Origin: a virus
Reading direction: 5' to 3' (one strand)
Virus record (IMG/VR): IMGVR_UViG_3300045988_144119
Span: 13,719-77,718 of that record
Length of the DNA stretch: 64,000 bases
The position numbers and the translations under genes are program-made. Below the pieces are notes generated by a model. That model saw only the letters and a list, made by a program, of their open reading frames with translations. It did not search any database and was not told the origin of the DNA. Shown one piece after another: positions 2,831 to 59,161 of the stretch; the first letter of the stretch is position 1, and each line of letters starts with the position of its first letter.

Positions 2831-5800
2831 CTATTGCATAAACACCCTAATCCCAGCCCCTTTGGAATTTGCGCTTGGTGCAAACACACGGTCTATCCTG
2901 TCCGAAAGGATTTCCAAATACCTCGTCTGCGCCCTCAACTCAACAAGCATGGGGTTAGATTCGCCCGATTGGGATTCTAAGCTGTAGTGGGCCTCTAATA
3001 GCACTCTGATTGCGGCTATGTCAGTTGTCTGTTGATTGACAAAGAACCTAATAGAATTAAGTAATGCTTCAAGAACTTTTGCTGTGGTTTCTGATATACC
3101 TTGTATACTTTGAGTAAGTGCCGACAATTCAGCCTTTTTGTTAGGCTTGTACCCCAAAGTTTCCATCAATGCGAGAAGGTCTTCATTTAGCCCTTCAAGA
3201 GCCGTTTTACCGATTGATTGGATGTTTGCAAGCTCTTCTTTAGTGAGGTTAATCCCTCCTACGCTCCCCTCTGTAACAGATTCATCTATTTTCTCAAACA
3301 GCTCCTTCAAACGCCCTTGCGCAAGTCTCATTGTAGCTTGTTTGACGATAAGATTTTCAATAAAACTATCAAAGTTTTCATTAAGGGCTTTTAGTCCATC
3401 TTCTGTTTCATTGAAAGCATCCATCCATGCTTGAACAAATGAAGAGGCGGCATCCTTATATTCTGACTCCCCACCTATACCTCCTAATTCTAATTTCTGT
3501 TGGTCTAAAATTTCTTGTCTTGTCTTTTTCAGTTCATTTATAGCATCATTCCATTCATCAATACGTCCTCTATCAGAATCTTTCTTTGCCTCTTCTGAGT
3601 TAATCATATTTTCATATGATTCAATCTGTTGGTCTAAATTGGCTATTGTATCTTTGGTTTGTGTACGAAGATCATCTGCACTCCAAGCGGCTTCCATCTT
3701 CTCCTTTAACTCATCGTATGCCCTACCAAGTGATTCTATATTCTTTATTTGCCGTTGGATTTCACGTTCTTTCTTCTTGTTCTTATTGCCAATGCCGAAT
3801 ATGCTACCGATTGTCTTGCCAAGTCCGGTGAGTACATTCAGAGAGCTACTTATTGGCTTTGTTATGTCAAAACTTTCAAGAGAACCGAATAATGCACCTA
3901 CACCATCTAAAATTTCATAAAGGTCTTCTCCTATTGCAACACCGAAACTATCCTCCAACATGTGAGCAAAGTCTGATACCGAATTTGTAATACCCGATAT
4001 ACTTTCAACCATACCTCCACCCATATCAATCTTTCCAAGAGATTGTATTATCCCTTGTAGCTTTTGAGCCTGTTGCGACAAAGCTCTGTTGGCAGCATCA
4101 TATCCGGCTACTATCTCGTCTTGCTTTTTCTTCTTGTCAACTAATAAATCGTAGTTATTTTGTTCAACTTCATATTCTTCAAATGCTGCATCTATATTTT
4201 CAGTAGCGGATTCATAAGCTGCTTTCTTTTCTGCTACTATTTTACTTTGCGTGCGTAATTGTTCCTCATATTTTGCTTGCAAATCTCTCGCTTTAGCCTC
4301 GTCCTTCTCATTTTTTGCATTTTCTTTACGGAGCTTTGTATATTCCTTGAGAGATTTTGTTAACTTATTCCACGGGTCTCTTTGGTTAAGCTGTTTGTCA
4401 AGTTTTTCTTCTTGCTCCATTATTTGCTTCAACTCTGTAGGTGACAAGTCTTTTGATTCCTCACGCATTTTCACAAGCTTATCTTTCATGCTTTGCAATG
4501 CTGCGGTAGAATAATATTCTATATTGTCAAACAGGTTAAGATAGCTGTCCGATGAAGTAAATTCCTTCCATGCGTTATTTGCTGACTTTTTATTGTACAT
4601 CTTAGTCGCATTTTCTTCCAATCTCTTTTGTAAATCTGGAGCGTTTTGGAATTTATCACGTATCTCTTCTAAGTCTTTGTAATACTGTTCATCGAGCTGT
4701 AATTGTTCTGAAAGCTGAGTTTTGTATGATTTGACCAGCCTTTCGGTAGTATCTTGTTGCTCCTTTATGCGCTGCTGATTCAACTTATCCAAATCGGCTA
4801 AGTATTGCTTGTTTGCGTCGGTATCTGCAACAAGGTACTCTCCTTTTGGGAAATTCTTTTCGTATGACGCTTTCATTTCTTTTTCGACATCATCCAATGT
4901 CTTAGCAAGTCCGGGGAACAAAGCCTGCACTTCGGCTTCGGACAGTCCTGCATCTTTCAGCTTCTGGTGTAAGTCTAAGCTGTTGAACATGGATTCTATG
5001 TTCTTCTTGGTCTTGTCGAGCTGTTTCTTAATATTTTCTACATCATCGCTATCCAGCAGTTGATATGAATCATTTATAGCACCTTGCTTCTTCCTAAAAT
5101 CTGTGATTATCTTTGAAATTTCCTGCAATGCTTTTGCTATATTCTGCTTGTTTGGCAAAAACGCATCTCCAATGATGTTCTTTGGCATATTCACGTTTTT
5201 GAGAGAATCTGCATAACGCTCCATAACAGTCTTAGCAGCCTTATCGCTGCCCATTACCTTGCTCAGCTTCTCGTATTCCTTATTAAGCTCTTTAATAAGA
5301 GAAATGCGCTCTGCTAATATGTCACGTTTATGTTTGGAGTCTGATTCAGGTTCTTCTTTATTTATCCCTGGTCTAAGAGGAACTTTTATATCTCCCAAAT
5401 TATATATATCGTATGCAAGTTGCTTTTTTATATCAGACCATTCTTTGGAAAATTCTCCTTTATTGATTAAAATCTTAAATTGTTCCCTTGTCTTATTACC
5501 TTTTATTACCTCATCATTTACAGAATCAAATATTTCACGTATTTCTTTAACTGCTTTTTCTTTATCTTTCTCCCAATCTTTCCTTGTTCCAAGAAACGAG
5601 CTAGCGATAGAACTTTTCTTACCTGCAAAAAGGACCCCGTTCTGTAACTTCTCCAAGTAGTCCGCAAGCCTTTTGTAGTAGTCGATTAAATCCTCTCCTT
5701 CTTTTTTCCCCTTTACAAGTTCTTGTATGTATTCTTTTGCTCCTTTACCCAAGGAAGTTGATTCTTCTGAAAGCCTTAATAGTTCAGCTTGTATTTTATT

Positions 5801-13757: not shown

Positions 13758-13810
13758 GACATTGGTTTAAGTATATATTACCTTGTTATTAAGAGGTATT
13801 TTTGCTTTTG

Positions 13811-15433
13811 ATGAAAGAGCAAGAAGTACATAATGCGATAGTGAAGAAACCTTTCCCAGGTTTCCAAACCTACTTTGCTTCAACGAACGTGGATATATCT
13901 TTCGGTGCCGGCGGGGTCGGAAACGGGAAGTCATACTCTCTTGTTCTTGGATTCGCTGAACCGTTAATGCTTGACCCTGATTTTAGATGCTTAATAAGTC
14001 GTAGAAGCCTTGGGAACCAAAAAGCAGGAGGAGGATTTGTTGATACATTCAAGGACATATTCGGGGGATATGTAAAAGTTAAAGAGGCAGACACGCCACG
14101 TATATCATTTCAAAGTGGAGCGTACTGCGATTTGACTTATATAGACCCAACGAATATAGACAGAATGAGGGAGCGTGCGAAAGGATGGCAGTACGATGCG
14201 ATTGCCATTGATGAGCTTACCGAAATGCCTTGGGAGGTATTTACGTACATTCAATCCCGTAATCGTGGAAAAAGCAAAACATTTACGGGGAAATTCCGTG
14301 CGACATTCAATCCTAAACGCACCCATTGGACGAGAAGATTCATAGATTGGTATGTTGGAGTTGACGGGAAGGGTATCCCTGATAGAATAGGAAAAGTCAG
14401 ATTCTTTTTTGTTGCTGGGTCTACCGTTGATGATGTGATTTGGGGAGATTCAAAAGAAGAAGTTTACGCTAAGTGCAAGATACAGATAGACAGTTTGATT
14501 AAAGACTTGAAAGGAAAAGCAAAATATCAAGACTTTATCAAATCGTTTACCTTATACGAGGGCACAGTTGATGAAAATGAAGCTCTAATGGAAGGCAATG
14601 CAGGGTACGTTGGTTCAGTTGCCGCTTCTGGTACACGCTCTGCTGCTGGGCTTATCGGTGTAAACTATAATGCAGACCCAGATTCTGACGAAAAGATACC
14701 TATCCCTTCCACTTCCGCACAAGGCGTGTTCAACAACAACCCTGCCGTAAACGGTGACAAATGGATTACCGTGGATTTGGCGGATTACGGTACGGATAAT
14801 CTCGTGGCTCTGGCATGGGATGGATTTCACGCATACGACATTCTCATTCTTAGCAAGTCCACTCCGAGAGAAAACGCTATGGCAGTGAAGACATTTGCAT
14901 TTGAGCATGGAACAGCCGAAAGCCATATCATTTTTGACGCGACTGCCGGAAGGTACTTCAATGATTACATTCCCGATGCAGTACCTTATATCTCGCTAAA
15001 TAAACCTTTCGGGCTTTACCAACTTACCGCAATGACAGTCAAGGATATGTGCTATATCAGATTATGCAAGATGATAGAGGAAGGCAACTTGACATTTGAC
15101 GATAAACTTGCCGTTCAGACTTACACTCATCAAAACTTGAAATACAAAGTGACGGTTGAGAACGAGTTTATGGAAGAATGTTCCGTTGTGCGATTTGACG
15201 ATATGCAGAGTGGGAAGAAGCGGCTTTGGAACAAGAAGAAAATGAATCAGATGTTAGGGAAAGGCAGGTCAATGGACTTGTTAGACCCATGCGCTATGAG
15301 AATGCTTCCGTGCGCTAACATTGAATACGGGAATGAGATTCAAGCAGGGTATTACAATCACGAGGAAGAAACCAAACAAGCGAGCCATGCACAGACAGAA
15401 GGAAGTATTTACGATGAACATTTATGGTATTAG
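13811..15433 (+). CDS. terL: terminase large subunit
   Basis: Walker A FGAGGVGNGKSYS and Walker B-like YDAIAIDELTE; ~540 aa. The ATG at 13811 is preferred over the TTG at 13802 in the ORF track. Confidence 0.9.
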   Translation: MKEQEVHNAIVKKPFPGFQTYFASTNVDISFGAGGVGNGKSYSLVLGFAEPLMLDPDFRCLISRRSLGNQKAGGGFVDTFKDIFGGYVKVKEADTPRISFQSGAYCDLTYIDPTNIDRMRERAKGWQYDAIAIDELTEMPWEVFTYIQSRNRGKSKTFTGKFRATFNPKRTHWTRRFIDWYVGVDGKGIPDRIGKVRFFFVAGSTVDDVIWGDSKEEVYAKCKIQIDSLIKDLKGKAKYQDFIKSFTLYEGTVDENEALMEGNAGYVGSVAASGTRSAAGLIGVNYNADPDSDEKIPIPSTSAQGVFNNNPAVNGDKWITVDLADYGTDNLVALAWDGFHAYDILILSKSTPRENAMAVKTFAFEHGTAESHIIFDATAGRYFNDYIPDAVPYISLNKPFGLYQLTAMTVKDMCYIRLCKMIEEGNLTFDDKLAVQTYTHQNLKYKVTVENEFMEECSVVRFDDMQSGKKRLWNKKKMNQMLGKGRSMDLLDPCAMRMLPCANIEYGNEIQAGYYNHEEETKQASHAQTEGSIYDEHLWY

Positions 15434-15472: not shown

Positions 15473-16654
15473 ATGTATATGCAGCGAGTAGAACGACATA
15501 TTATCATTGGTAACAAGTACTTGGACAGGCTTTGTTTCCTATCCAAGAATTTGTACAACTACGCAAACTATATGATTCGTCAGGAGTTTACGAAGAGTGG
15601 TAAGTTGCTTCCTGAATACGGATTGACAGCTTTACTTGCCAAGGAAAAACAAATGGATTATACATCTCTTCCTGCGAAGACCAGTCAACAGGTTGTTGCT
15701 CTTCTATTCAAGAATTGGAAGTCGTTTTTTAAACTATGTAAATGCAAGGACAAGCTTAATGGTAAACCGAAACCTCCGAAGTATAAACATAAGACGAAAG
15801 GACGAAATATAGTCGTATTCACCTATCAGCAATGCAAGTTGAAGGACGGATACATTCACTTTCCGAAGAAAGTAAACATACAACCGTTAAGAACAAAAGT
15901 AACTAATTTGCGTCAGGTTCGCATTATCCCGCAATGTAGTTGCCATATCATAGAAGTAGTATATGAAAAAGAAAGTATTGAAACCACCGGACTTGAACCA
16001 AACTCTTATTTAAGTATTGACTTGGGATTGAACAACCTTGCAACTTCCTATGATTCGCTATGTCATAAGAGCTTTATCATAAATGGCAGAATATTGAAAT
16101 CCATAAACCAATACTTCAACAAGAGGAAAACTAAGTTAATGAGTTTCATTGGAGGGAAAGGTACAAGTAGGCGAATAGGGAAACTAACACTAAAGCGGAA
16201 TTGTAAAGTGAATGACTATATGCACAAGACTTCCCGATTTATTGTAAACTATTGTATTGATAATCATATTGATACTATTGTAATAGGTAATAACAAAGAT
16301 TGGAAGCAGCAAATAAATATGGGGAAACGTAACAATCAAAACTTTGTCAGCATCCCATTTGAAAAGCTAATCTCTCAGATACAGTACAAGTCCGAAGAAG
16401 TGGGAATTAAGGTCGTAATAACCGAAGAAAGTTATACTTCCAAAATAGACCACTACGCAGGCGAAGAGATGTGTCAACATGAAACATATTTAGGTAAGCG
16501 CATACAAAGAGGTCTATTCCGTAGCAGTACAGGTAAAATCCTGAATGCTGATCTAAACGGAGCGATAGGGATTTTAAGAAAAGTAGTTGGCGAAAGCATC
16601 TCGCAAGTAGTCAATAGAGGGGGAGTGGAGACCCCAACGAGATTGCTGGTGTAA
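15473..16654 (+). CDS. tnpB: TnpB-like RNA-guided nuclease (IS200/IS605 family accessory protein, no TnpA)
   Basis: 393 aa. The RuvC triad is visible: LSIDLGLNNLA (D), ITEESYTSK (E), NADLNGAIGILRK (D). The usual CxxC..CxxC zinc finger between RuvC-II and III is absent. Confidence 0.85.
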   Translation: MYMQRVERHIIIGNKYLDRLCFLSKNLYNYANYMIRQEFTKSGKLLPEYGLTALLAKEKQMDYTSLPAKTSQQVVALLFKNWKSFFKLCKCKDKLNGKPKPPKYKHKTKGRNIVVFTYQQCKLKDGYIHFPKKVNIQPLRTKVTNLRQVRIIPQCSCHIIEVVYEKESIETTGLEPNSYLSIDLGLNNLATSYDSLCHKSFIINGRILKSINQYFNKRKTKLMSFIGGKGTSRRIGKLTLKRNCKVNDYMHKTSRFIVNYCIDNHIDTIVIGNNKDWKQQINMGKRNNQNFVSIPFEKLISQIQYKSEEVGIKVVITEESYTSKIDHYAGEEMCQHETYLGKRIQRGLFRSSTGKILNADLNGAIGILRKVVGESISQVVNRGGVETPTRLLV

Positions 16655-16679: not shown

Positions 16680-17204
16680 ATGATAAGCTATAACGACATA
16701 AAGGATATTATCAATTCCCTTAAAACAGAAGGAATTGAAGCAAGGGTAAGAGATGTTGCCTATTTGGTAATGTGTGATTCTTTCGTAGATAAGGATCTTG
16801 CTGCAAAGGTTGCTTACCAAGAAGATGAAAAGCCTTCAAACAAGGTGTTATCCACGCTTGCCGAGAAACTGAAATCTTTCGGCATCGGTGCTATCACTAC
16901 CATATCTAAAGATGAGAACCGAGAAGCGTTGCTGAAAGAAATATCGGAGATGAAACAGATTGCTGACGATGCGAAAGCAAGTGGAGATTCAGACACTTTT
17001 ATCAAAGCAAGTAAGGTCGTGTTGGATGCACGCGTGAAGCTGAACGATAAATTCAATATTGAAGAGAAAGAGGGGCAGAAGCGAATAATCGTTGTTCCGC
17101 AGAAGCACGACATTATCTGCAAATGGACTTCGAGAGAGTGTTCTGCAATGCCGAGCAAGGAAGCCTGCATGAAGTATTACAACCTAATTGATGCGGAAAA
17201 ATGA
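16680..17204 (+). CDS. hypothetical protein (174 aa)
   Basis: ORF between tnpB and portal; its stop overlaps the portal start (ATGA 17201-17204); no motif recognised. Confidence 0.6.
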   Translation: MISYNDIKDIINSLKTEGIEARVRDVAYLVMCDSFVDKDLAAKVAYQEDEKPSNKVLSTLAEKLKSFGIGAITTISKDENREALLKEISEMKQIADDAKASGDSDTFIKASKVVLDARVKLNDKFNIEEKEGQKRIIVVPQKHDIICKWTSRECSAMPSKEACMKYYNLIDAEK

Positions 17205-18721
17205 CACGGGAAGAGAAAAAAACATATCTATTGCGGAACGTAAATGCCTTGTTGCAGAAGAAACCGTTTTTCAGAGGAAGTGACACTTGCTCTACAAACG
17301 ACTATTCCGACGGTCAGTCCGCAGCTATTACCGATACACGCACGGCAAGGCTTCCGAATGTAAAAAAGAATATCGTTTCGCAGGAAAAGTTTCTGAAAGA
17401 ACTTGACCCGATGAGCCATGAGGTATTATTTGATCAAAACTTGCCGAGCATTTGCGTGAAGTTAGAAGATGGGGGATATCAGGAAATCAAGTTCCAGCGC
17501 ACGGCATTAGCTTTCCAAGAACAGATACTGGCGAGCCACGTAATCTACCTTTGCGGGAATCCCTGTACATTGTCTTTAAGAGGTGGCACTCCTTCCGAGA
17601 AAGATAAAGCCAACTATTCCACAATCAAAGAGTATTGGGTAGACAGGAATATGGATGGATGGCGTACAAAGGCAGTCCGTTCGCAACTTGCAACAGGCGA
17701 TGCAGGACTTCTGTTTTATTATGACTATAAAGGACGTATCAAGTGCCGCCTGATAAGTTATGAAGATGGTTACGTAATCATATCACACAATGACAACAAC
17801 GGTGACAGGCTTCTTGAAAGTGTCTACTATGCCGATGCGGACGGTGTGGAATACATTGACAGTTACGATGATACCTACATGTACCGTATGCACACACCGA
17901 TAGACGGTGAAGAAGCAGGCGAGGACGGTTTTGTAAGAGAACTTCCTATATTGCACGGTTTCAGTGAGATACCATTGTGTACCAAACGTGGTAATGTGGC
18001 GTGGAACAACGGACAGAGTCTTATCGAGATTTACGAGATTATCTACAACATCTTCTTTGTCATTCAGAAACGGAACGGCTGGGGCATTCTGTATATTAAA
18101 GGCAATCTGTCAGAAACGACAAAGAAACTTGCAGGGAGTATCATTTTGCAAGACAAGTCAATGGACGGTAACGGAAGTGCAGAGTTCAAAGCACCGCCCA
18201 GTCCGCAAGGTATGCTTGACAGTCTGCAAGATTTGTTCGAGAAGATACAGATAAACACCTCATGCACATTTCTTTTGCCTAAAGATGTCAAGTCAAGTGG
18301 TGACATAAGCGGACTGGCTATTACGCTGACCCGTGATTTAGATTTGAAGAATGCCCAGCAAGGGGTTATCGAGTGGCAGAATTTTGCAGACAAGATGATG
18401 CGCCTGTTCAAGGAGGGATTAGCCAAAGAATTGGTAAAAAAAGGCGAGAACGTAAATGCCATTACAGAATTTGACAAACTTCGTGTCAGCTGTAAGTTCA
18501 AGATATGGCAGCCGTTCAGTGCAACTGAGTATAACAACATGCTTATCTCAATGAAACAGGCTGGTATTCTCTCCACGAAAACGGCTATCGAAAAGAACAC
18601 GGAGAGCACACCCGATGAGGAGCAACGAGTGACTAAGGAAGTTAAGGAAGCAGAAGAAAAGGTGATTGCCCAACAGCAAGCCAACAAAACGAACAAGCAG
18701 GAAGGAGGTAATAATGAATAA
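17201..18721 (+). CDS. portal protein candidate
   Basis: 506 aa; size and position next to the terminase; Q/E-rich C-terminal tail; no motif-level proof. Confidence 0.65.
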   Translation: MTREEKKTYLLRNVNALLQKKPFFRGSDTCSTNDYSDGQSAAITDTRTARLPNVKKNIVSQEKFLKELDPMSHEVLFDQNLPSICVKLEDGGYQEIKFQRTALAFQEQILASHVIYLCGNPCTLSLRGGTPSEKDKANYSTIKEYWVDRNMDGWRTKAVRSQLATGDAGLLFYYDYKGRIKCRLISYEDGYVIISHNDNNGDRLLESVYYADADGVEYIDSYDDTYMYRMHTPIDGEEAGEDGFVRELPILHGFSEIPLCTKRGNVAWNNGQSLIEIYEIIYNIFFVIQKRNGWGILYIKGNLSETTKKLAGSIILQDKSMDGNGSAEFKAPPSPQGMLDSLQDLFEKIQINTSCTFLLPKDVKSSGDISGLAITLTRDLDLKNAQQGVIEWQNFADKMMRLFKEGLAKELVKKGENVNAITEFDKLRVSCKFKIWQPFSATEYNNMLISMKQAGILSTKTAIEKNTESTPDEEQRVTKEVKEAEEKVIAQQQANKTNKQEGGNNE

Positions 18722-40912: not shown

Positions 40913-41833
40913 TCATTTAATTTTTAAGAAGTTGCTCATTCGCTCAATGCATCTTTGTTTTTGATTGAGATTGGGATGCACATATAAATTGAGTGTGGTA
41001 GCGATATTCGAATGTCCAAGAATTACACTCACTGTCTTATAATCGCATTGACTTTCAATGCATCTGGTAGCAAATGTATGCCGGAGTCCATGAAACACAA
41101 TGTGCGGAATATTCAGACGCTTCAAGAGCCGGGCAAAGAAATCACGGTAAGAACGGGGATCTTCCGGACGTCCTGATGTTCCTACTACAAATCGGGACGG
41201 AGATATTTTCTTTACTTCCTTCAAGGCAAAGAGAAGCTGTCTTGAGATAGGTATCTCCCGGTATGAATTTCGTGTTTTGGGAGAAGTGAAAGTCCTTTCC
41301 GTAGTTCTTGATTCGCAGTTGTATATCCTTCCTGCTGTATAACTAATGGTGATTACCTTCTGTCTGAAATCCACATCTTCCCATCGCAGGGCACACACCT
41401 CTCCAATCCTCATGCCGGTACACAGAGACAGCAGAATGCCTATATTCTTAGGAGTTGGGGATTCGGTGAGATGGCTCATCAGTATCTGTTGATGGTTTAA
41501 GGACAAAGTAGGCAAACGGTGAGATTCGGTATCTGTAGGATAGTTTATCTCCCACTCCTCATAAGGGAATAACTTATGTTTCCCACCATACTTGACTATA
41601 GATTTCAGCACCGCCACAATATCCCTTACGGTTTTTTTAGCAAGACCAGAGGAAAGCTTGTAGAGAACAAATTTCTGAACGTCGCTTTCCGATATAGCTG
41701 TCGCCGTCCCATAATATGGGAGTAAATGGGTTTGAAGGGTAAGCATATACGCGCACATCGTGGCATGCTTTATAATGGGCTGCTTCGCAGCACTCCAAAT
41801 CCTGGCGACTTCTTGAAATGTTTTAGTATTCAT
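40913..41833 (-). CDS. int: tyrosine recombinase / integrase
   Basis: GMRIGEVCALRWEDVD (Arg), HGLRHTFATRCIE (H-x-x-R), LGHSNIATTLNLYVH (His, Tyr). Confidence 0.85.
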   Translation of the reverse strand: MNTKTFQEVARIWSAAKQPIIKHATMCAYMLTLQTHLLPYYGTATAISESDVQKFVLYKLSSGLAKKTVRDIVAVLKSIVKYGGKHKLFPYEEWEINYPTDTESHRLPTLSLNHQQILMSHLTESPTPKNIGILLSLCTGMRIGEVCALRWEDVDFRQKVITISYTAGRIYNCESRTTERTFTSPKTRNSYREIPISRQLLFALKEVKKISPSRFVVGTSGRPEDPRSYRDFFARLLKRLNIPHIVFHGLRHTFATRCIESQCDYKTVSVILGHSNIATTLNLYVHPNLNQKQRCIERMSNFLKIK

Positions 41834-43132: not shown

Positions 43133-44006
43133 TCATTAGATTTTTATTAACACTATTTTCATGGCATATTTCTCTAAACATTAATTGATATTTTGGTTTT
43201 ATTAAATAATAAGCAAAAGTTTCAATTAAATCAACATCATCGTTTGTTCTACCTTGTATTTTGAAATGATTGATCCCTAAATTTAAATAAGTATTAATCA
43301 TATCAATTGTTACAACTTGTGGAGCATTTAATATTTCATAAAGATTACCATTACCGCAATAGCTTTCATGAATACATTTAAACGTAATATCATTGTTATT
43401 TATATTTAAATTAGATATATGTTCATAATGATTTTTTCTTGATTTACAATTGTTAGGACAAATTGTATTAACAATTATTTCAAGTTTATTACGAGTATGT
43501 TCTGGAAATAATGATATAGTTTTCCAGTCATTTATCATATATTCACTTAATACTATACGTTTATATTGATCTGTCTTTTTTATAATAGCTTCAAAATCAA
43601 AGCAAGCGGTAGTTGATAATATAAACTGTCCTCTTCTTATACCTTGATTTTCTAGCCATTTTTCAATATATAAATTAGAAAGACAAAAATAAGTATTTTT
43701 CTTATCAAATGTTGTTATAATTCGTGATGCATAATCATCTGGAAAGTATTGTTCGTTAGCAAATAGATTACTCATAATGATAGTTGGACATAAATTATGT
43801 TCTTTACAAAAATTTTCAACTTCTTTTTCATTGTTGAAATGTCCACTATTTCGTCCGCCATTTGCTACTCCACCATTAGATCCATAAAAAGATGATATAA
43901 TAAAGTTATCACGAAAAATATATGGATAATTTTCATATAATAAAATAGTTTGTTTTACTATATGAAATTTTTCAAATAGTCCTGGAAGATTAAAATAAAC
44001 TTTCAT
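43116..44006 (-). CDS. orphan, strongly AT-rich ORF (296 aa), weak U32 / TIM-barrel Fe-S enzyme-like hints
   Basis: Uninterrupted ORF 40 nt downstream of the tRNA-like element. GINHFKIQGR resembles the KIEGR motif of the peptidase U32 family. Two Cys pairs (CPNNC, CIHESYC). Composition is clearly AT-richer than the flanks. Confidence 0.5.
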   Translation of the reverse strand: MKVYFNLPGLFEKFHIVKQTILLYENYPYIFRDNFIISSFYGSNGGVANGGRNSGHFNNEKEVENFCKEHNLCPTIIMSNLFANEQYFPDDYASRIITTFDKKNTYFCLSNLYIEKWLENQGIRRGQFILSTTACFDFEAIIKKTDQYKRIVLSEYMINDWKTISLFPEHTRNKLEIIVNTICPNNCKSRKNHYEHISNLNINNNDITFKCIHESYCGNGNLYEILNAPQVVTIDMINTYLNLGINHFKIQGRTNDDVDLIETFAYYLIKPKYQLMFREICHENSVNKNLMSYTGS

Positions 44007-44046
44007 AAATTTTTGATAATTTTGAAGTTAATTTTATAAAAAGTAA

Positions 44047-44117
44047 TGGTAATAGGAGGGAGATTCGAACTCCCTTCTCTCTTAAGAGACTTCACTACCA
44101 CGCAAAGTTTTCCTATT
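44047..44117 (-). ncRNA. tRNA-like element lacking an anticodon arm, with encoded ACCA end
   Basis: Acceptor AATAGGA/TCCTATT (7 bp), D arm ACTT-TGCGTGGTAGTG-AAGT, T arm GGGAG-TTCGAAT-CTCCC, discriminator A plus CCA. Only TCTCTTAAGAGA stands where the 17-nt anticodon arm should be. Confidence 0.6.
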
Positions 44118-44259
44118 CCAGCTTTTTACGACATTAGCTTAGCCGTTGACTTATCGTATTACGCTGTAACACGAGTATAGTCTGTTACGAAAGATTTGTC
44201 ATTTCTGACGTCTATTGACCTATTCATTTTCATCTTCGCTGTCAAAACCAGATAGCCCC
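44118..44259 (-). ncRNA. tmRNA 5'-piece-like RNA (coding-piece candidate)
   Basis: Starts GGGGCTATCTGGTTTTGACAGCG (compare E. coli GGGGCTGATTCTGGATTCGACGGG). Contains AATAGAC followed by a 16-codon ORF ending TAA (44209-44159). The 3' boundary is not defined. Confidence 0.55.
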
Positions 44260-44346
44260 TTCGTTGTTTCTTTGTTATCGTAGTGAAACGCCACGGTCAG
44301 AAAGTTCTATGTCCTGATTTTACAAGATACTTTGCAAAGTAATTTG

Positions 44347-44398
44347 TGGAGCTAGAGGGAGTCGAACCCTCGTCCAAACGATTCATCTAATGACCTAA
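44347..44398 (-). ncRNA. tmRNA 3'-piece-like RNA (acceptor-piece candidate) or ssrA-type attP core
   Basis: GGAC GAGGG TTCGACT CCCTC TAGCTCC A; the acceptor strand is complementary to GGGGCTA at 44259-44253, including a G3-U pair. Confidence 0.6.
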
Positions 44399-44720
44399 CA
44401 GTCAATATAGTAGTATATAGTTAAATCAATAACTATATACTTAAATATAATAAACTGTAGGTAAGTATAATAAAAATAATAATCGGAAATATACTTATTA
44501 AATATAAAGGCAGATGCTTACTCTATATTTAAAGATTTACTTCTATATCTAATAATAGCGTCAATTATTACTTTACTATAGGCTCTAGGCTCGCTTACTC
44601 TACAGTTTTAAATAGGCTTTGATTGCATGTATAGTATAGCAAGTGCTCACGCAGAACGGACTCGATTGAACTATAGGCATAAAGCTCTCTATACATATAC
44701 AATTTGATTTTGTGTACATC

Positions 44721-44966
44721 TTATTGAATATTCTGATTAATGTAATCCACAATCTTTTCCAATCTACTTAAAGAAAACAAATGATTATTAAGCGTTCGCT
44801 TGCCTTCTTTCCATTCGTAAAATAATTGATAATATGGTGGATTGAGTGTCCGGTCAACCTTTATGCGATATTGATTAGTACCATATTCAGTTATAAGATT
44901 CTCAATATATTCGTCCGAATTTTCTAAATCAGTAACAAATACCATCTTATCAGTAGTAAGTATCAT
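44721..44966 (-). CDS. hypothetical protein (81 aa)
   Basis: ORF in operon. Confidence 0.5.
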   Translation of the reverse strand: MILTTDKMVFVTDLENSDEYIENLITEYGTNQYRIKVDRTLNPPYYQLFYEWKEGKRTLNNHLFSLSRLEKIVDYINQNIQ

Positions 44967-45513: not shown

Positions 45514-46803
45514 CTAAACCTCCTTAAGCTCTCCATTGACTAGCATATACCATGTATCAGCCTTAACCTTTTTCCCGTCAACTTCAAATGCCTTAACCTC
45601 TTTAATCGGGTAGGTATCACCGTTCCATTCTCCACGCTCTGCGAGGACTATCCAGCAACCTATAGCTCCCTTAGCCTTACACCCGTATCCGGCAGCAAGA
45701 GCAATGCTATCCTTGCCTGTGGCTGATGCTGCACCTTGGTTGCCTGTGGCTGATGCTGCACCTCGGTAGCCTGTGGCTGATGCTGCACCTTGGTAGCCTG
45801 TGGCTGATGCTGCACCTTGGTTGCCTGTGGCTGATGCTGCACCTCGGTAGCCTGTGGCTGATGCTGCACCTTGGTAGCCTGTGGCTGATGCTGCACCTTG
45901 GTTGCCTGTGGCTGATGCTGCACCTCGGTAGCCTGTGGCTGATGCTGCACCTTGGTAGCCTGTGGCTGATGCTGCACCTTGGTTGCCTGTGGCTGATGCT
46001 GCACCTCGGTAGCCTGTGGCTGATGCTGCACCTTGGTAGCCTGTGGCTGATGCTGCACCTTGGTCACCTGTGGCTGACTTACCCTTCTTCCACTTGCATT
46101 TTTCAAACGTAAACTTAACGGCTGCGTCTACAATACTCTTAATACTTAGTTCCGCTCCTATGTGGATTTTTGAGCAAGCAATTTTCGTATCATCCGTATC
46201 TACGTCCATATCGCCAGTTCCCTCAACCTCGTGAAACTTATTCATACCAACTTCGGCAGGTGGATAGTAACTGAACACGTCCAACGGATGGAGGCAGAAG
46301 TGAAATCCGTTACCGCAAGCTCTTATATCGCCTGTTTCTTCATAGTCCTTACCTTCTTTGTATTGGAAATCCCTACATGTCAAATCGGGGTTAAAACCTT
46401 TGTAGCCTTTGATTTTGACAAATTCCTTTGGTAAGGTAACGTTATCCGGCAGGTTTGCCCTAAGTACCATGTACGCCATGTAGCCGGCGTCAAATCCGGC
46501 TATCCCGGTGCCAATGGCAGTTAGGAGGAATTCCTTTTCCAGATGCTCGTTAGCGTAATTCCCGAAGTTCCCTAAAAATACGATCAGCTCTTCTTCAGTT
46601 ACTTTCTGCATATCCTTGTCCAGCGTAGGGATAGCATAGGACTGACCTTGTATCCCTTTTGCTTTCCCCATAATTGCACCAAACTTCTCAACTGCCAATC
46701 TAGCTGCACCTCCGGCGTGATTGCCGTTCATGTTGCTTCCAAAAACGAATATTTGATTTTCTTTCAGTTCCTGAATATTCTCAGGCGTTAATTCTCTTTT
46801 CAT
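45514..46803 (-). CDS. three-part protein: A1S_2505-like Rossmann domain, DUF7666-like domain, nonapeptide-repeat domain
   Basis: [20 protein letters not shown]...[11 protein letters not shown]; then [21 protein letters not shown]...[18 protein letters not shown]; then about 13 x G(Y/N)(Q/R)GAASAT. Family names are from memory. Confidence 0.6.
45716..46077. repeat. tandem 27-bp coding repeat (13.4 copies) with 81-bp higher-order periodicity
   Basis: Unit cctgtggctgatgctgcaccttggttg; variants ttggttg / tcggtag / ttggtag cycle with period 3. Confidence 0.9.
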
Positions 46804-58707: not shown

Positions 58708-59161
58708 GTCATTTAATCATAAGTTTGTTCCCCTCAACAGCTTAAACCGGTTGTTACCCCGAATCTTACGGGAGGGGATATATTAGACCTTTCAGCGATA
58801 CTTGTGCCTAACCAAGCATACTTCTACGCTAAAGACAAATTGGCGTGCTGAAAGTAAATTTCATTTCAACTTCGTGGCTTTACCACCATCAGACATTTAC
58901 AACCATTCGACCGTTATCGTCTTATCTTCGGTTGCTATCGGTGTCAATTCCGTTCCACTTGCACCCACCACTATCTACCATCACTGGCTTCGCTTCTGTG
59001 CCTGCGCAGAAATCATATATAATAATTGTACGGTTTTACCCATACATTATTTCTATTGTATAAATAAATATTTCAAAGAACTATTTTTTTGCTCCCTGCT
59101 CAGTTATCGCTACTGAATTCCGTTCATTCCGTCAACAGGGATAAATGTCTTTAAAGCTTAG

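What the first reader, a model, noticed from the sequence alone, without database searches (positions are those of the whole stretch)
44118..44400. Permuted (two-piece-like) tmRNA locus inside a phage early operon
All observations are on the minus strand. (1) 44375-44347 reads GGAC GAGGG TTCGACT CCCTC TAGCTCC A. This is the conserved tmRNA 3' end; compare E. coli ssrA ...GGAC GCGGG TTCAACT CCCGC CAGCTCC ACCA (from memory). (2) 87 nt further downstream, 44259-44234 reads GGGGCTATCTGGTTTTGACAGCGAAG. This is the conserved tmRNA 5' end (E. coli GGGGCTGATTCTGGATTCGACGGG). (3) GGGGCTA pairs perfectly with TAGCTCC, including the G3-U70 alanine identity pair. The 3' piece therefore precedes the 5' piece, which is the gene order of circularly permuted ssrA genes. 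(4) AGCGA (44240-44236) can pair with TCGTT (44381-44377) at the P2a position. CTAATG (44137-44132) can pair with CATTAG (44392-44387), closing a two-piece fold. (5) After AATAGAC (E. coli has AATAGTC before its resume codon) comes the ORF GTC AGA AAT GAC AAA TCT TTC GTA ACA GAC TAT ACT CGT GTT ACA GCG TAA (44209-44159). It would append VRNDKSFVTDYTRVTA, which lacks the usual ALAA degron. To my knowledge, permuted tmRNAs are described only in alpha-proteobacteria, some cyanobacteria and some beta-proteobacteria, not in phages of this kind.
Basis: partly seen in the sequence, partly recalled or inferred. Interest (0 to 1): 0.85.

Follow-up and report, generated by a model that had tools for sequence, protein, structure and literature searches.

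The report
Two-piece tmRNA gene in Bacteroides phage
A gut Bacteroides phage carries a real, rearranged ("permuted") gene for tmRNA, the ribosome-rescue RNA; the same stripped-down gene occurs in well over a hundred gut phages, is auto-annotated in a few crAss-like genomes, and I found no paper describing it.

Summary
Rfam's permuted-tmRNA model hits window 44406-44159 (minus strand) at 58.3 bits (threshold 47, E 9.5e-9). ARAGORN misses it here but calls permuted tmRNAs at the homologous site in crAss-like relatives.

More than 140 related viral loci support the fold:
- 95% of cells pair, against 78% when shuffled.
- 17 of 28 pairs show compensatory changes.
- Nine or more acceptor-stem versions all keep G3-U70.
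- The 13-14 codon tag frame is conserved.

Gene layout on the minus strand:
- acceptor piece 44406-44347
- 87-nt spacer
- coding piece 44259-44118

- The resume codon is probably GAC (tag DKSFVTDYTRVTA), not GTC.
- The CTAATG/CATTAG closing helix is not conserved. A local pseudoknot is supported instead.
- Permuted tmRNAs are already known in marine phages, and RefSeq labels tmRNA in relatives.

What is unusual:
- The gene looks derived from Bacteroidota one-piece tmRNA.
- It fails the alpha, beta and cyano lineage models.
- It has no PK1.
- It is shared between unrelated phage lineages.
- In some relatives the T-loop holds a group I intron.

Function in trans-translation is inferred, not shown.

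The parts
44412..44441 (-). 12-bp hairpin (AGTATATAGTTA / loop TTGATT / TAACTATATACT) that ends 5 nt upstream of the acceptor piece. It may be a 5' processing or stabilising element.
   Evidence: MFE -13.2 kcal/mol, z -4.7, 0 of 200 shuffles as good. A 12-bp hairpin with loop TTGRTY and covarying stems ends 2-5 nt before ATTGAC in 21 of 46 distinct upstream contexts of relatives. Its function is not tested.
44347..44406 (-). Acceptor piece. It holds the P2 3' strands (ATTGAC 44406-44401, TCAT 44393-44390, TCG 44381-44379, TTG 44377-44375), the T-arm (GAGGG 44371-44367, loop TTCGACT, CCCTC 44359-44355), the 3' acceptor strand TAGCTCC 44354-44348 and the discriminator A 44347. CCA is not encoded; the gene reads A-C-A.
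   Evidence: Rfam RF04321 alignment; covariation; 3 mismatches in 36 nt against the 3' end of Bacteroides sp. GD17 ssrA.
44260..44346 (-). 87-nt intervening sequence between the two pieces, presumed to be removed during processing.
   Evidence: Its length and sequence are not conserved: 15-216 nt in relatives, about 600 nt where it holds a free-standing HNH endonuclease gene, and it contains a tRNA-His in cr114_1.
44118..44259 (-). Coding piece. It holds the 5' acceptor strand GGGGCTA 44259-44253 (G3 pairs with U, the alanine identity pair), the D-loop analogue TGGTTTTGAC, and the P2 5' strands (CAG 44241-39, CGA 44238-36, ATGA 44227-24, GTCAAT 44219-14). These are followed by the tag ORF, the stop-codon hairpin and a 3' pseudoknot block. 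The 3' end is inferred to be ...AAAAGCUGG.
   Evidence: This piece is 85-94% identical to crAss-like phages cr6_1, cr125_1 and cr114_1, although the flanks are unrelated.
44159..44200 (-). Tag reading frame: GAC AAA TCT TTC GTA ACA GAC TAT ACT CGT GTT ACA GCG TAA, encoding (Ala)-DKSFVTDYTRVTA. The resume codon GAC is assigned by homology.
   Evidence: ARAGORN tags in relatives are GNFYVTDYTRIAA, GNTSYVMDYTRLAA and GNTSYVTDYTRLVA. There are 18 tag variants in 110 loci, all 13-14 codons long with frame and stop preserved. GAC aligns with the GGC of relatives and lies 13 nt after helix P2d, whereas GTC would lie only 4 nt after it.
44154..44174 (-). Hairpin P5 (TCGTGTT / loop ACAGCGT / AATACGA). 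The stop codon UAA 44161-44159 lies at the junction of the loop and the stem.
   Evidence: Predicted in the MFE fold. The stem is replaced by CACGC/GCGTG in cr60_1 and cr52_1, a compensatory change seen by eye.
44120..44147 (-). Nearly invariant 3' block AACGGCTAAGCTAATGTCGTAAAAAGCT, read as an H-type pseudoknot. S1 is ACGGC 44146-42 with GTCGT 44132-28. S2 is AGCT 44139-36 with AGCT 44123-20.
   Evidence: The exact 21-mer occurs in more than 119 IMG/VR contigs. Rare variants give one compensatory change for S1 (ACGGU/AUCGU, L278) and one for S2 (U-A to C-G, L253 type). The block resembles the widely conserved TAAGCATGTAG(A/T)A region near the 3' side of standard tmRNAs. The evidence is thin, resting on two events.
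44047..44117 (-). tRNA-like element directly after the coding piece. It has a 7-bp acceptor stem (AATAGGA/TCCTATT), a D-arm, a 5-bp 'anticodon' stem with only a 4-nt loop (TAAG), a T-arm GGGAG TTCGAAT CTCCC, a discriminator A and an encoded CCA. It is probably a processing handle: RNase P cutting at its 5' end would create the 3' end of the coding piece.
   Evidence: The MFE fold is a cloverleaf at -22.3 kcal/mol. Neither ARAGORN nor Rfam tRNA calls it. Most relatives have a tRNA-like element at the same place, typically starting 9 nt after the block. These range from 42 to 80 nt, with a canonical T-loop, covarying acceptor stems and mostly 4-6 nt 'anticodon' loops. A few of them reach the tRNA threshold: 31.5 bits in L003 and 36 bits in L015.

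Best explanation
The locus is a functional, circularly permuted (two-piece) tmRNA gene carried by a temperate-type Bacteroides phage.

Shown:
- The gene order is acceptor piece, spacer, coding piece.
- The tRNA-like domain, a long P2 helix, the G3-U70 alanine identity pair, a canonical T-loop and a 13-codon tag frame with its stop in a hairpin are all present.
- These features are maintained by compensatory change across more than 140 related phage loci.
- The gene resembles Bacteroidota one-piece ssrA more than it resembles E. coli ssrA, and it does not fit the alpha, beta or cyano permuted lineage models.

Inferred mechanism:
1. The locus is transcribed with the minus-strand replication/early genes. 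No promoter or terminator of its own was detected.
2. RNase P cuts 5' of G44259 and 5' of the terminal tRNA-like element (A44117).
3. The 3' end after A44347 is trimmed and CCA is completed by the host CCA-adding enzyme.
4. The two pieces stay paired through the acceptor stem and P2.
5. Host AlaRS charges the RNA, and host SmpB and EF-Tu deliver it to stalled ribosomes. No SmpB gene was found in the phage.
6. Translation resumes at GAC and appends A-DKSFVTDYTRVTA.

The likely benefit is extra or re-programmed ribosome-rescue capacity during infection. The tag differs from the host's GE(T/N)NYALAA. Its conserved core (V-T/M-D-Y-T) and its Ala end suggest a specific, still unknown fate for tagged proteins.
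For: - Rfam RF04321 scores 58.3 bits against a gathering score of 47, E 9.5e-9, with a full-length match.
- ARAGORN calls permuted tmRNA with homologous tags in cr125_1, cr114_1, cr60_1 and cr52_1. RefSeq annotates these as tmRNA.
- A 7-bp acceptor pairing was found in 110 of 116 loci, in nine or more versions. One of the 110 (L085) is a mis-registered call. All the others have G1-C, G2-C and G3-U.
- There are 14 T-stem versions, of which 13 are fully paired.
- The formal count gives 95.1% of cells paired against 77.6% shuffled, 17 of 28 pairs with double changes, and a covariation score of 0.424 against 0.119, with 0 of 500 shuffles as high.
- Two-strand folds recover P2 in most of the 53 distinct variants.
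- The tag frame and stop are kept in 18 peptide variants, and length differences are whole codons.
- No ORF of 50 aa or more lies on either strand at 44007-44599.
- The locus shares these motifs with host ssrA: CTGG(A/T)TTTGACAGCG; TCGTTTGGACGAGGGTTCGA; and the resume context ATAACT|GGC, including an identical 12-mer, GCCATAACTGGC, in a Bacteroidetes MAG.
Against: - There is no expression, processing, charging or tagging data of any kind.
- ARAGORN does not call the window copy.
- There is no PK1: only 13 nt separate P2d from the resume codon. Most of PK2-4 is also absent, and these are elements normally thought to help tmRNA function.
- The window's tag ends in VTA rather than a known LAA or LVA degron.
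- Some relatives have non-canonical T-loops, so part of the family may work differently or be decaying.
- Codon-position statistics do not by themselves show strong purifying selection on the peptide.
- No promoter was found.
Confidence: 0.8

Rival explanations
1. The RNA is tmRNA-derived but does not tag proteins for degradation. It either rescues ribosomes and leaves a stable tag, or it acts mainly as a competitor or decoy for host tmRNA, SmpB or AlaRS, in the way reported for the CDS-less tmRNA of mycobacteriophage DS6A.
For: - PK1 to PK4 are missing.
- The window tag ends in VTA rather than LAA.
- Several relatives have aberrant T-loops: TATCGTAT, GGCAGTA, TTCAATT.
- The DS6A precedent is cited in PMC11915505.
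Against: - The tag frame, its length and its stop codon are kept in 18 variants.
- Most tags end in IAA, LAA or LVA, which are classic ssrA-type ends.
- The resume context matches host tmRNAs.
- A pure decoy would have no need for an ORF.
Confidence: 0.1
2. The T-arm and acceptor segment is mainly an attP identity block copied from the 3' end of the host ssrA gene for integration by the nearby integrase. On this view the rest is incidental.
For: - There is a 20-nt exact identity (TCGTTTGGACGAGGGTTCGA), and 33 of 36 nt are identical to Bacteroides sp. GD17 ssrA.
- A tyrosine integrase is encoded at 40913-41833 on the same strand.
- ssrA is a common integration site (PMC11915505, and the E. coli CP4-57 prophage next to ssrA).
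Against: - The complementary 5' acceptor strand lies 87 nt downstream and covaries with the 3' strand in nine or more versions.
- The same gene is present in crAss-like genomes, in regions with no annotated integrase.
- Four ORFs separate it from the integrase.
- Phage genes lie on both sides, so it is not a prophage end.
- A secondary use of the gene as attP cannot be excluded.
Confidence: 0.03
3. The window copy is a decaying relic of a gene that is functional only in crAss-like phages.
For: - ARAGORN fails on the window copy.
- The tag end VTA is seen only in the window and two near-identical contigs.
- The tRNA-like element here has the shortest 'anticodon' loop seen among the full cloverleaf-type variants.
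Against: - Its Rfam score (58.3 bits) is the highest of the six family loci scored.
- All the helices, the G3-U70 pair, the canonical T-loop, the frame and the stop are intact.
- The identical core is kept in three independent assemblies.
Confidence: 0.04
4. The tRNA-like parts act only as RNase P/Z punctuation signals that cut the polycistronic early transcript, without any role on the ribosome.
For: - Two tRNA-like modules flank a short segment.
- No own promoter or terminator was found.
- The 3' element is clearly not a decoding tRNA.
Against: Punctuation would not require strict retention of G3-U70, a long covarying P2, a host-like resume context, or a conserved 13-14 codon frame with its stop in a hairpin.
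Confidence: 0.03

Closest known systems
Permuted (two-piece) tmRNA genes of Alphaproteobacteria, some Betaproteobacteria and Cyanobacteria (Rfam RF01849, RF01850, RF01851; merged model RF04321)
   Same: - The gene order is the same: acceptor piece first, then the coding piece.
- The tRNA-like domain is assembled from two RNAs.
- G3-U70 is present, and there is a tag ORF.
- The locus passes the merged RF04321 model.
   Different: - It fails all three lineage-specific models. The alpha model gives only a spurious 7.3-bit match about 200 nt away (threshold 50), the beta model gives 35.4 bits against 84 and matches the tRNA-like domain only, and there is no cyano hit.
- Its sequence affinities are with Bacteroidota one-piece ssrA.
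- It has no PK1, a very short coding piece (about 142 nt) and a terminal tRNA-like element.
- It is phage-borne.
Two-piece tmRNA genes of marine phages (OM43 phage Melnitz, pelagimyophages, cyanophages; PMC9004378)
   Same: A phage-encoded, permuted ssrA placed among early genes. It is presumed to use the host's SmpB.
   Different: - The marine genes group with their hosts' own permuted lineages (alpha, cyano), and some carry a glutamine riboswitch.
- Here the hosts (Bacteroidales) have a standard one-piece gene.
- No nucleotide similarity to any other phage tmRNA was found in 50,697 phage records.
'transfer-messenger RNA, SsrA' features in RefSeq crAss-like genomes (Suoliviridae: NC_055900 cr125_1, NC_055897 cr114_1, NC_055891 cr60_1, NC_055888 cr52_1)
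   Same: These are true homologues. They share the same blocks, the same tag family and the same 3' tRNA-like element. The coding piece is 77-86% identical to the window.
   Different: - The window phage is not a crAss-like phage.
- The annotations are automatic, span about 380-450 nt and do not mark the permutation.
- Other relatives are left unannotated (cr53_1, cr6_1, cr113_1, cr56_1).
- No paper discussing these genes was found.
Standard one-piece tmRNA of Bacteroidales (Bacteroides sp. GD17, Segatella copri, Prevotella, Paraprevotella; 395-397 nt; tags GETNYALAA and GENNYALAA)
   Same: - The T-arm and 3' acceptor end are nearly identical.
- The P2a sequences are the same (GACAGCG...CGTTTGGAC).
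- Relatives share the GGC resume codon with upstream ATAACT/TTATCT.
- A TAAGC..TGT..TAGAAAGC block is shared near the 3' side.
   Different: - The host gene is not permuted and has PK1 to PK4.
- The host tag is 9 aa and ends in ALAA.
- The phage tag is 13-14 aa with a DYT(R/G/H) core.
Intron-form tmRNA genes (group I intron in the T-loop; PMC11915505)
   Same: Some relatives (not the window) carry a group I intron in the T-loop, after loop nucleotide 2 or after nucleotide 7. These correspond to positions 3 and 8 of that paper's numbering.
   Different: In these loci the intron sits in the acceptor piece of a permuted gene. The paper's list of gene forms does not include that combination.
tRNA-like 3'-end processing handles (e.g. 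mascRNA at the 3' end of MALAT1; tRNA-linked transcripts cut by RNase P) - from general knowledge
   Same: A non-decoding cloverleaf or minihelix lies immediately after a functional RNA, at a position where RNase P cleavage would define that RNA's 3' end.
   Different: Cleavage here is only inferred. The element could equally be a degenerate co-transcribed tRNA, or a vestige of a duplicated tRNA-like domain.

Membership tests
tmRNA, permuted gene form (Rfam RF04321) | Covariance-model score at or above the curated gathering score | tested here: met
   58.3 bits against 47, E 9.5e-9, model positions 1-213 of 213.
tmRNA, permuted gene form (Rfam RF04321) | The 3' half of the tRNA-like domain (T-arm and 3' acceptor strand) is encoded upstream of the 5' acceptor strand, and the two strands pair | tested here: met
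   TAGCTCC 44354-44348 lies before GGGGCTA 44259-44253. Nine or more covarying stem versions occur in 110 loci.
tmRNA (any form) | G3-U70 alanine identity pair in the acceptor stem | tested here: met
   G-U at the third pair in the window and in all correctly registered relatives.
tmRNA (any form) | T-arm with a tRNA-type T-loop, and no anticodon arm; the arm is replaced by the long helix P2 | tested here: met
   GAGGG TTCGACT CCCTC. P2a to P2d are supported by compensatory changes. Some relatives deviate in the T-loop.
tmRNA (any form) | Short internal tag reading frame with a resume codon and an in-frame stop | tested here: met
   A 13-codon frame ends at TAA 44161-44159. The frame and stop are conserved in 18 peptide variants. 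The exact resume codon is inferred.
tmRNA (any form) | Tag ends in a hydrophobic, Ala-rich degron (…ALAA, LAA) | tested here: inconclusive
   The window tag ends in VTA. Relatives end in IAA, LAA, LVA, LSA or ITA, and the last residue is always Ala. Whether VTA is recognised by a protease is unknown.
tmRNA (any form) | Pseudoknot PK1 between P2 and the resume codon | tested here: not met
   Only 11-13 nt lie between helix P2d and the resume codon. The PK1 hairpin positions of the Rfam model are not matched. PK1 is typical of tmRNA but not universal.
tmRNA (any form) | Processed by tRNA enzymes, CCA-ended, charged with alanine, bound by SmpB, acts on stalled ribosomes | not testable with these tools
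   No expression or biochemical data are available. No SmpB domain was found in 18 window ORFs of 158-228 aa, so host SmpB would be needed.
Alpha-, beta- or cyanobacterial permuted tmRNA lineages (RF01849, RF01850, RF01851) | Score at or above the lineage model's gathering score | tested here: not met
   The alpha model gives 7.3 bits against 50, at an unrelated site (43904-43949). The beta model gives 35.4 bits against 84 and covers only the tRNA-like domain. The cyano model gives no match at E up to 10.
tRNA (Rfam RF00005 / ARAGORN), for the element at 44117-44047 | tRNA covariance model or ARAGORN call, with a 7-nt anticodon loop | tested here: not met
   There is no RF00005 match at E up to 10 and no ARAGORN call. 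The 'anticodon' loop is 4 nt. The acceptor stem, D-arm and T-arm are tRNA-like, and homologous elements in L003 and L015 score 31.5 and 36 bits.

The most novel reading that the evidence does not exclude
These genes represent a separate, fourth origin of circular permutation of tmRNA, arising from a Bacteroidota one-piece ssrA and living only in phages.

On this reading they form a minimal, mobile trans-translation cassette made of a tRNA-like domain, P2, the tag, one pseudoknot and a tRNA-like 3' processing handle. The cassette moves horizontally between unrelated gut phage lineages (Crassvirales and a LoVEphage-like group). It is itself a target of selfish elements, which produces a gene form I found no description of: a permuted tmRNA gene with a group I intron in its T-loop.
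Probability: 0.45. Interest if true: 0.7.

Novelty: new variant of a known kind. Interest (0 to 1): 0.55.

Why it matters
tmRNA is close to universal in bacteria and is an antibiotic target. Why phages carry their own copies is an open question.

This family offers a very small, naturally minimised two-piece tmRNA: about 63 nt plus about 142 nt, with no PK1. It is abundant in human-gut phages, including crAss-like phages that can now be cultured on Bacteroides. That makes three things directly testable:
- what a phage gains from its own ribosome-rescue RNA
- what its distinctive tag does
- how little RNA structure trans-translation really needs

It also matters for annotation. ARAGORN misses this copy and several relatives, and the intron-containing copies are not annotated at all.

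Tried and rejected
- **ARAGORN on the window:** it found no tRNA or tmRNA. I rejected this as evidence of absence because Rfam and the comparative data agree with each other.
CATTAG occurs only in this copy, while CTAATG is invariant.
- **My alternative helix, UGUUAG (44399-44394) with CUAAUG:** in the L253-type loci the block changes to CCAUUG while CTGTTAGG stays the same. I rejected it in favour of a local pseudoknot.
- **A standard, non-permuted gene using the downstream T-arm:** GGGGCTA cannot pair with TCCTATT, and that element has its own 5' strand.
- **An own promoter or terminator:** there is no sigma-70-type excess, no Bacteroides TAnnTTTG motif on the minus strand at 44407-44700, and no intrinsic terminator.
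- **A phage SmpB gene:** none among 18 ORFs of 158-228 aa.
- **The 'ribosomal protein-like' gene next to the tmRNA in cr125_1:** no Pfam support.
- **An ungapped test of P2a/b:** it failed because of a 1-nt bulge. Two-strand folds and the aligned count resolve this.
- **Plain MAFFT of whole coding pieces:** it misaligned P2c and P5, so I used anchored extraction instead.
- **Codon-position analysis of the tag:** uninformative.
- **Literature searches for tmRNA in crAss-like or Bacteroides phages:** they found only tool citations.
Full report

Yes. On the minus strand the window reads GGAC GAGGG TTCGACT CCCTC TAGCTCC A at 44374-44347.

A scan of the whole 64-kb window against all 4227 Rfam families at curated thresholds returns two hits. 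One is RF04321, 'permuted transfer-messenger RNA', covering 44406-44159 (-). It scores 58.3 bits against a gathering score of 47, with E 9.5e-9, and matches the model from its first position to its last. ARAGORN reports nothing anywhere in the window, so a pipeline that relies on ARAGORN alone would miss this gene.

No ORF of 50 aa or more lies on either strand between 44007 and 44599.

**2. What kind of genome is this?**

The flanking genes on the same strand encode:
- two DNA methyltransferases
- a DnaB-type helicase
- a DnaD-like loader
- an ERF recombinase
- a tyrosine integrase

A terminase, a portal protein and large structural genes lie on the other arm.

The large terminase is most similar, at only 26-28% identity, to those of Bacteroides, Phocaeicola and Parabacteroides phages of about 60-74 kb such as LoVEphage. 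Patches of the replication block match Bacteroides phages at 78-97% nucleotide identity. So the window is a temperate-type Bacteroides phage, not a crAss-like phage. 'Early operon' is a fair description of the context.

**3. Relatives**

BLAST of the locus against 50,697 phage records finds ten records. All are human-gut phages: eight crAss-like genomes of the family Suoliviridae and two unclassified 'Bacteriophage sp.' records. In four of the crAss-like genomes RefSeq already carries a 'transfer-messenger RNA, SsrA' feature at the matching place. ARAGORN labels those four as permuted and gives their tags as GNFYVTDYTRIAA, GNTSYVMDYTRLAA and GNTSYVTDYTRLVA.

Outside the tmRNA, the window shares nothing with these genomes. 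The gene is therefore a module shared horizontally between unrelated phage lineages.

A second pattern added about 30 more loci, including divergent ones. Only two contigs (L010, L013) are the same phage type as the window, and their tmRNA core is identical to the window's.

**4. Structure, tested by comparison**

- **Acceptor stem.** In 110 of 116 loci a 7-bp acceptor stem joins the start of the coding piece to the end of the acceptor piece. One of those calls (L085) is mis-registered. There are nine or more sequence versions, for example GGGGCAT/ATGCTCC, GGGGCTA/TAGCTCC, GGGGCTG/CAGCTCC, GGGGGTA/TACCTCC and GGGTGTG/CACATCC. Every correctly registered one keeps G1-C, G2-C and the G3-U alanine identity pair. 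The search would have accepted G-C at that position.
- **T-stem.** It occurs in 14 versions, 13 of them fully paired.
- **Two-strand folds.** Folding each of the 53 distinct variants as two strands recovers the P2 helices in most of them. Paired substitutions include TCAT/ATGA versus TCTA/TAGA, TCG/CGA versus TTG/CAA, and TTG/CAG versus TAG/CTG.
- **Formal count.** On an alignment of 28 distinct sequences, 95.1% of cells are paired, against 77.6% after shuffling and 34-49% with slid partners. Seventeen of 28 pairs have changes on both sides. The covariation score is 0.424 against 0.119, and 0 of 500 shuffles reach any observed measure.
- **P2d.** The outermost helix (ATTGAC/GTCAAT) is invariant, so it is not tested.
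- **Stop-codon hairpin.** It is TCGTGTT...AATACGA in the window and CACGC...GCGTG in cr60_1 and cr52_1.

**5. The tag**

Across the loci there are 18 different peptides of 13 or 14 residues. The pattern is (G/D)(N/K)(TS)(Y/F)(V/I)(T/M/S)(D/N)Y(T/S)(R/G/H/D)(I/L/V)(A/V/T/S)A, and the frame and stop are always kept.

The window's version is DKSFVTDYTRVTA. Its near relatives have DKSFVTDYTRIAA. The resume codon is placed at GAC (44200-44198) for two reasons. It aligns with the GGC that ARAGORN picks in relatives. Both starts are in the same frame, so only an experiment can settle this.

The family as a whole, however, ends in IAA, LAA or LVA.

**6.

*(a) A tRNA-like element at 44117-44047.* It lies directly after the coding piece. 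It has a 7-bp acceptor stem, a D-arm, a canonical T-arm, a discriminator A and an encoded CCA, but only a 4-nt 'anticodon' loop. It folds as a cloverleaf, yet neither ARAGORN nor the Rfam tRNA model recognises it.

Most relatives have such an element, typically starting 9 nt after the conserved block. They range from 42-nt minihelices to 80-nt near-tRNAs. Their acceptor stems covary, and their 'anticodon' loops are mostly 4-6 nt. A few pass the tRNA threshold. Divergent loci with a different 3' domain still end in this element.

The simplest reading is that it is a processing handle, with RNase P cleavage at its 5' end creating the 3' end of the coding piece. This is inference.

*(b) A 12-bp hairpin at 44441-44412.* It ends 5 nt before the acceptor piece. 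About half of the distinct upstream contexts in relatives have a 12-bp hairpin with loop TTGRTY at the same place.

*(c) A likely pseudoknot in the conserved 3' block.* Rare variants supply one compensatory change for each of its two stems. This support is thin.

**7. Origin**

The hosts' own genes were fetched for comparison. Bacteroides sp. GD17, Segatella copri, Prevotella and Paraprevotella have ordinary one-piece tmRNAs of 395-397 nt with tags GETNYALAA or GENNYALAA.

The phage gene shares several features with them:
- the P2a sequences (GACAGCG...CGTTTGGAC)
- a nearly identical T-arm and 3' end (33 of 36 nt)
- the resume context ATAACT|GGC, including an identical 12-mer in one Bacteroidetes genome
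- a TAAGC..TGT..TAGAAAGC block

Its tRNA-domain parts align better to Bacteroidales genes than to E. coli ssrA, scoring 55 and 48 against 40 for the acceptor piece. The lineage-specific permuted models do not accept it. The alpha model gives only a spurious 7.3-bit match elsewhere, the beta model gives 35.4 bits against 84 and covers the tRNA-like domain only, and the cyano model gives nothing.

This points to a separate permutation event from a Bacteroidota ancestor, with loss of PK1 and most of PK2-4. With one outgroup and no tree, I rate this as likely but not shown.

**8. How it probably works**

*Shown:* the anatomy and its conservation.

*Inferred:*
1. The locus is transcribed with the early/replication genes; no promoter or terminator signal was found.
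2. RNase P cuts before G44259 and before A44117.
3. The end after A44347 is trimmed and CCA is completed; the gene encodes A-C-A, much as the host genes do.
4. The two pieces associate through the acceptor stem and P2.
5. The RNA is charged with alanine. Host SmpB assists, since no SmpB domain appears in 18 window ORFs of suitable size.
6. The RNA enters stalled ribosomes and adds A-DKSFVTDYTRVTA.

Published ideas for phage tmRNAs include keeping the hijacked translation machinery running and tagging proteins for recycling (PMC9004378, PMC7162821). Nothing here discriminates between them.

**9. What is known**

Permuted tmRNA genes are well known in three bacterial groups and in organelles (PMC11915505). 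Two-piece tmRNAs in phages have been reported: one survey lists 53 ARAGORN two-piece calls, almost all from marine phages (PMC9004378).

For this gut-phage family I found only automatic RefSeq features. No paper in the searchable library discusses it. The 2025 tmRNA database lists 79 phage sequences, plus a few dozen 'permuted' genes in Bacteroidota genomes, without comment. Some of those entries may belong to this family.

I therefore file the finding as a new variant of a known kind. Membership of tmRNA is met on all sequence-testable defining features except PK1 and a canonical degron. Membership of the three described permuted lineages is not met.

**10. Side finding in relatives**

In at least nine loci, including the RefSeq genome cr6_1, the T-loop of the acceptor piece is split by a group I intron carrying an antisense HNH/EndoVII-type endonuclease gene. 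Rfam RF00028 scores 77-97 bits on the three loci scanned.

In eight of these loci the intron follows GGGTT (the split lies within the loop TT|CGACT). In L053 it follows TTCGACT. The exon sequences can form contiguous P1 (GGGUU with GGACCC, giving U-G at the splice site) and P10 (CGACU with AGUCG) pairings; I judged this by eye.

Seven other loci have the same kind of endonuclease gene free-standing in the spacer. All seven have an altered 8-nt T-loop, TATCGTAT, as would be expected if the endonuclease targets the canonical T-loop DNA.

The current tmRNA database paper does not list a permuted gene with a T-loop intron among its gene forms.

**11. Verdict**

Three details are corrected and two parts are added. 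The kind of gene is known, but this design, its apparent origin and its spread among gut phages are not described as far as I could find. Function remains inferred.

Noticed in passing
L006 (NC_055894 cr6_1) 4264-3332 (-); also L015, L036, L053, L056, L077, L093, L107, L108: The T-loop of the acceptor piece of the permuted tmRNA gene is interrupted by a group I intron of about 870 nt. RF00028 scores 77-97 bits on the three loci scanned (L006, L015, L053). The intron carries an antisense HNH/EndoVII-like endonuclease ORF. It follows GGGTT in most loci and TTCGACT in L053. This 'permuted plus intron' form is not annotated in RefSeq, and the tmRNA database paper does not list it. The 3' splice site is ambiguous: AAGA|CGACT implies either a non-G omega or an 8-nt T-loop.
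   Followed up: partly
L007, L016, L032, L043, L052, L083, L124 (spacer of about 600 nt between the two tmRNA pieces): A free-standing endonuclease gene of the same PHROG families sits on the opposite strand in the intervening sequence. All seven of these loci have the unusual T-arm GGGGC TATCGTAT GCCCC (GAGGC...GCCTC in L083). This suggests a homing endonuclease together with a resistant target allele.
   Followed up: partly
L002 (NC_055897 cr114_1) 3234-3306 (-): A high-scoring tRNA-His (63 bits) lies inside the intervening sequence of the permuted tmRNA gene. The tmRNA database paper describes a tRNA in that position as unique to one archaeal-binned sequence.
   Followed up: no
window 59093-59141 (-): A full-length match to the Rfam family DUF2693-FD RNA (RF02926): 61.3 bits against a gathering score of 44.5, E 5.6e-12.
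   Followed up: no
window 15473-16654 (+): A 393-aa ORF matching transposase families (phrog_506, E 4e-51) sits between the large terminase gene (13802-15433) and the portal gene (17201-18721). This is probably an insertion sequence inside the packaging module.
   Followed up: no
L001-L008, L015, L053 (crAss-like loci, within 0.1-5 kb of the tmRNA, mostly upstream): The tmRNA in crAss-like phages lies in a dense cluster of structured RNAs: RAGATH-9, RAGATH-20, RAGATH-7-assoc and Hatchet ribozymes, all well above their Rfam thresholds. None of these is present in the window.
   Followed up: no
L257, L270, L272, L273, L280 (between the tag stop codon and the terminal tRNA-like element): In these loci the usual 3' block is replaced by an unrelated, conserved domain of about 150 nt (…GGGGAGTAATACCG…GATGGGGTTGTGAAATAGATT…). 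This may be another structured RNA. The terminal tRNA-like element is retained.
   Followed up: no
window 44596-44726 and L017, L042, L053: About 100 nt upstream of the tmRNA module, overlapping small ORFs at 44600-44752 and 44721-44966, is 75-86% identical in three otherwise unrelated loci. The transferred module may therefore extend beyond the RNA gene.
   Followed up: no
window 45796-46347: The 429-aa ORF at 45514-46803 lies inside the replication block. It matches tail-fibre and collagen-like PHROG families and contains internal repeats: BLAST hits from L010 and L013 overlap one another.
   Followed up: no
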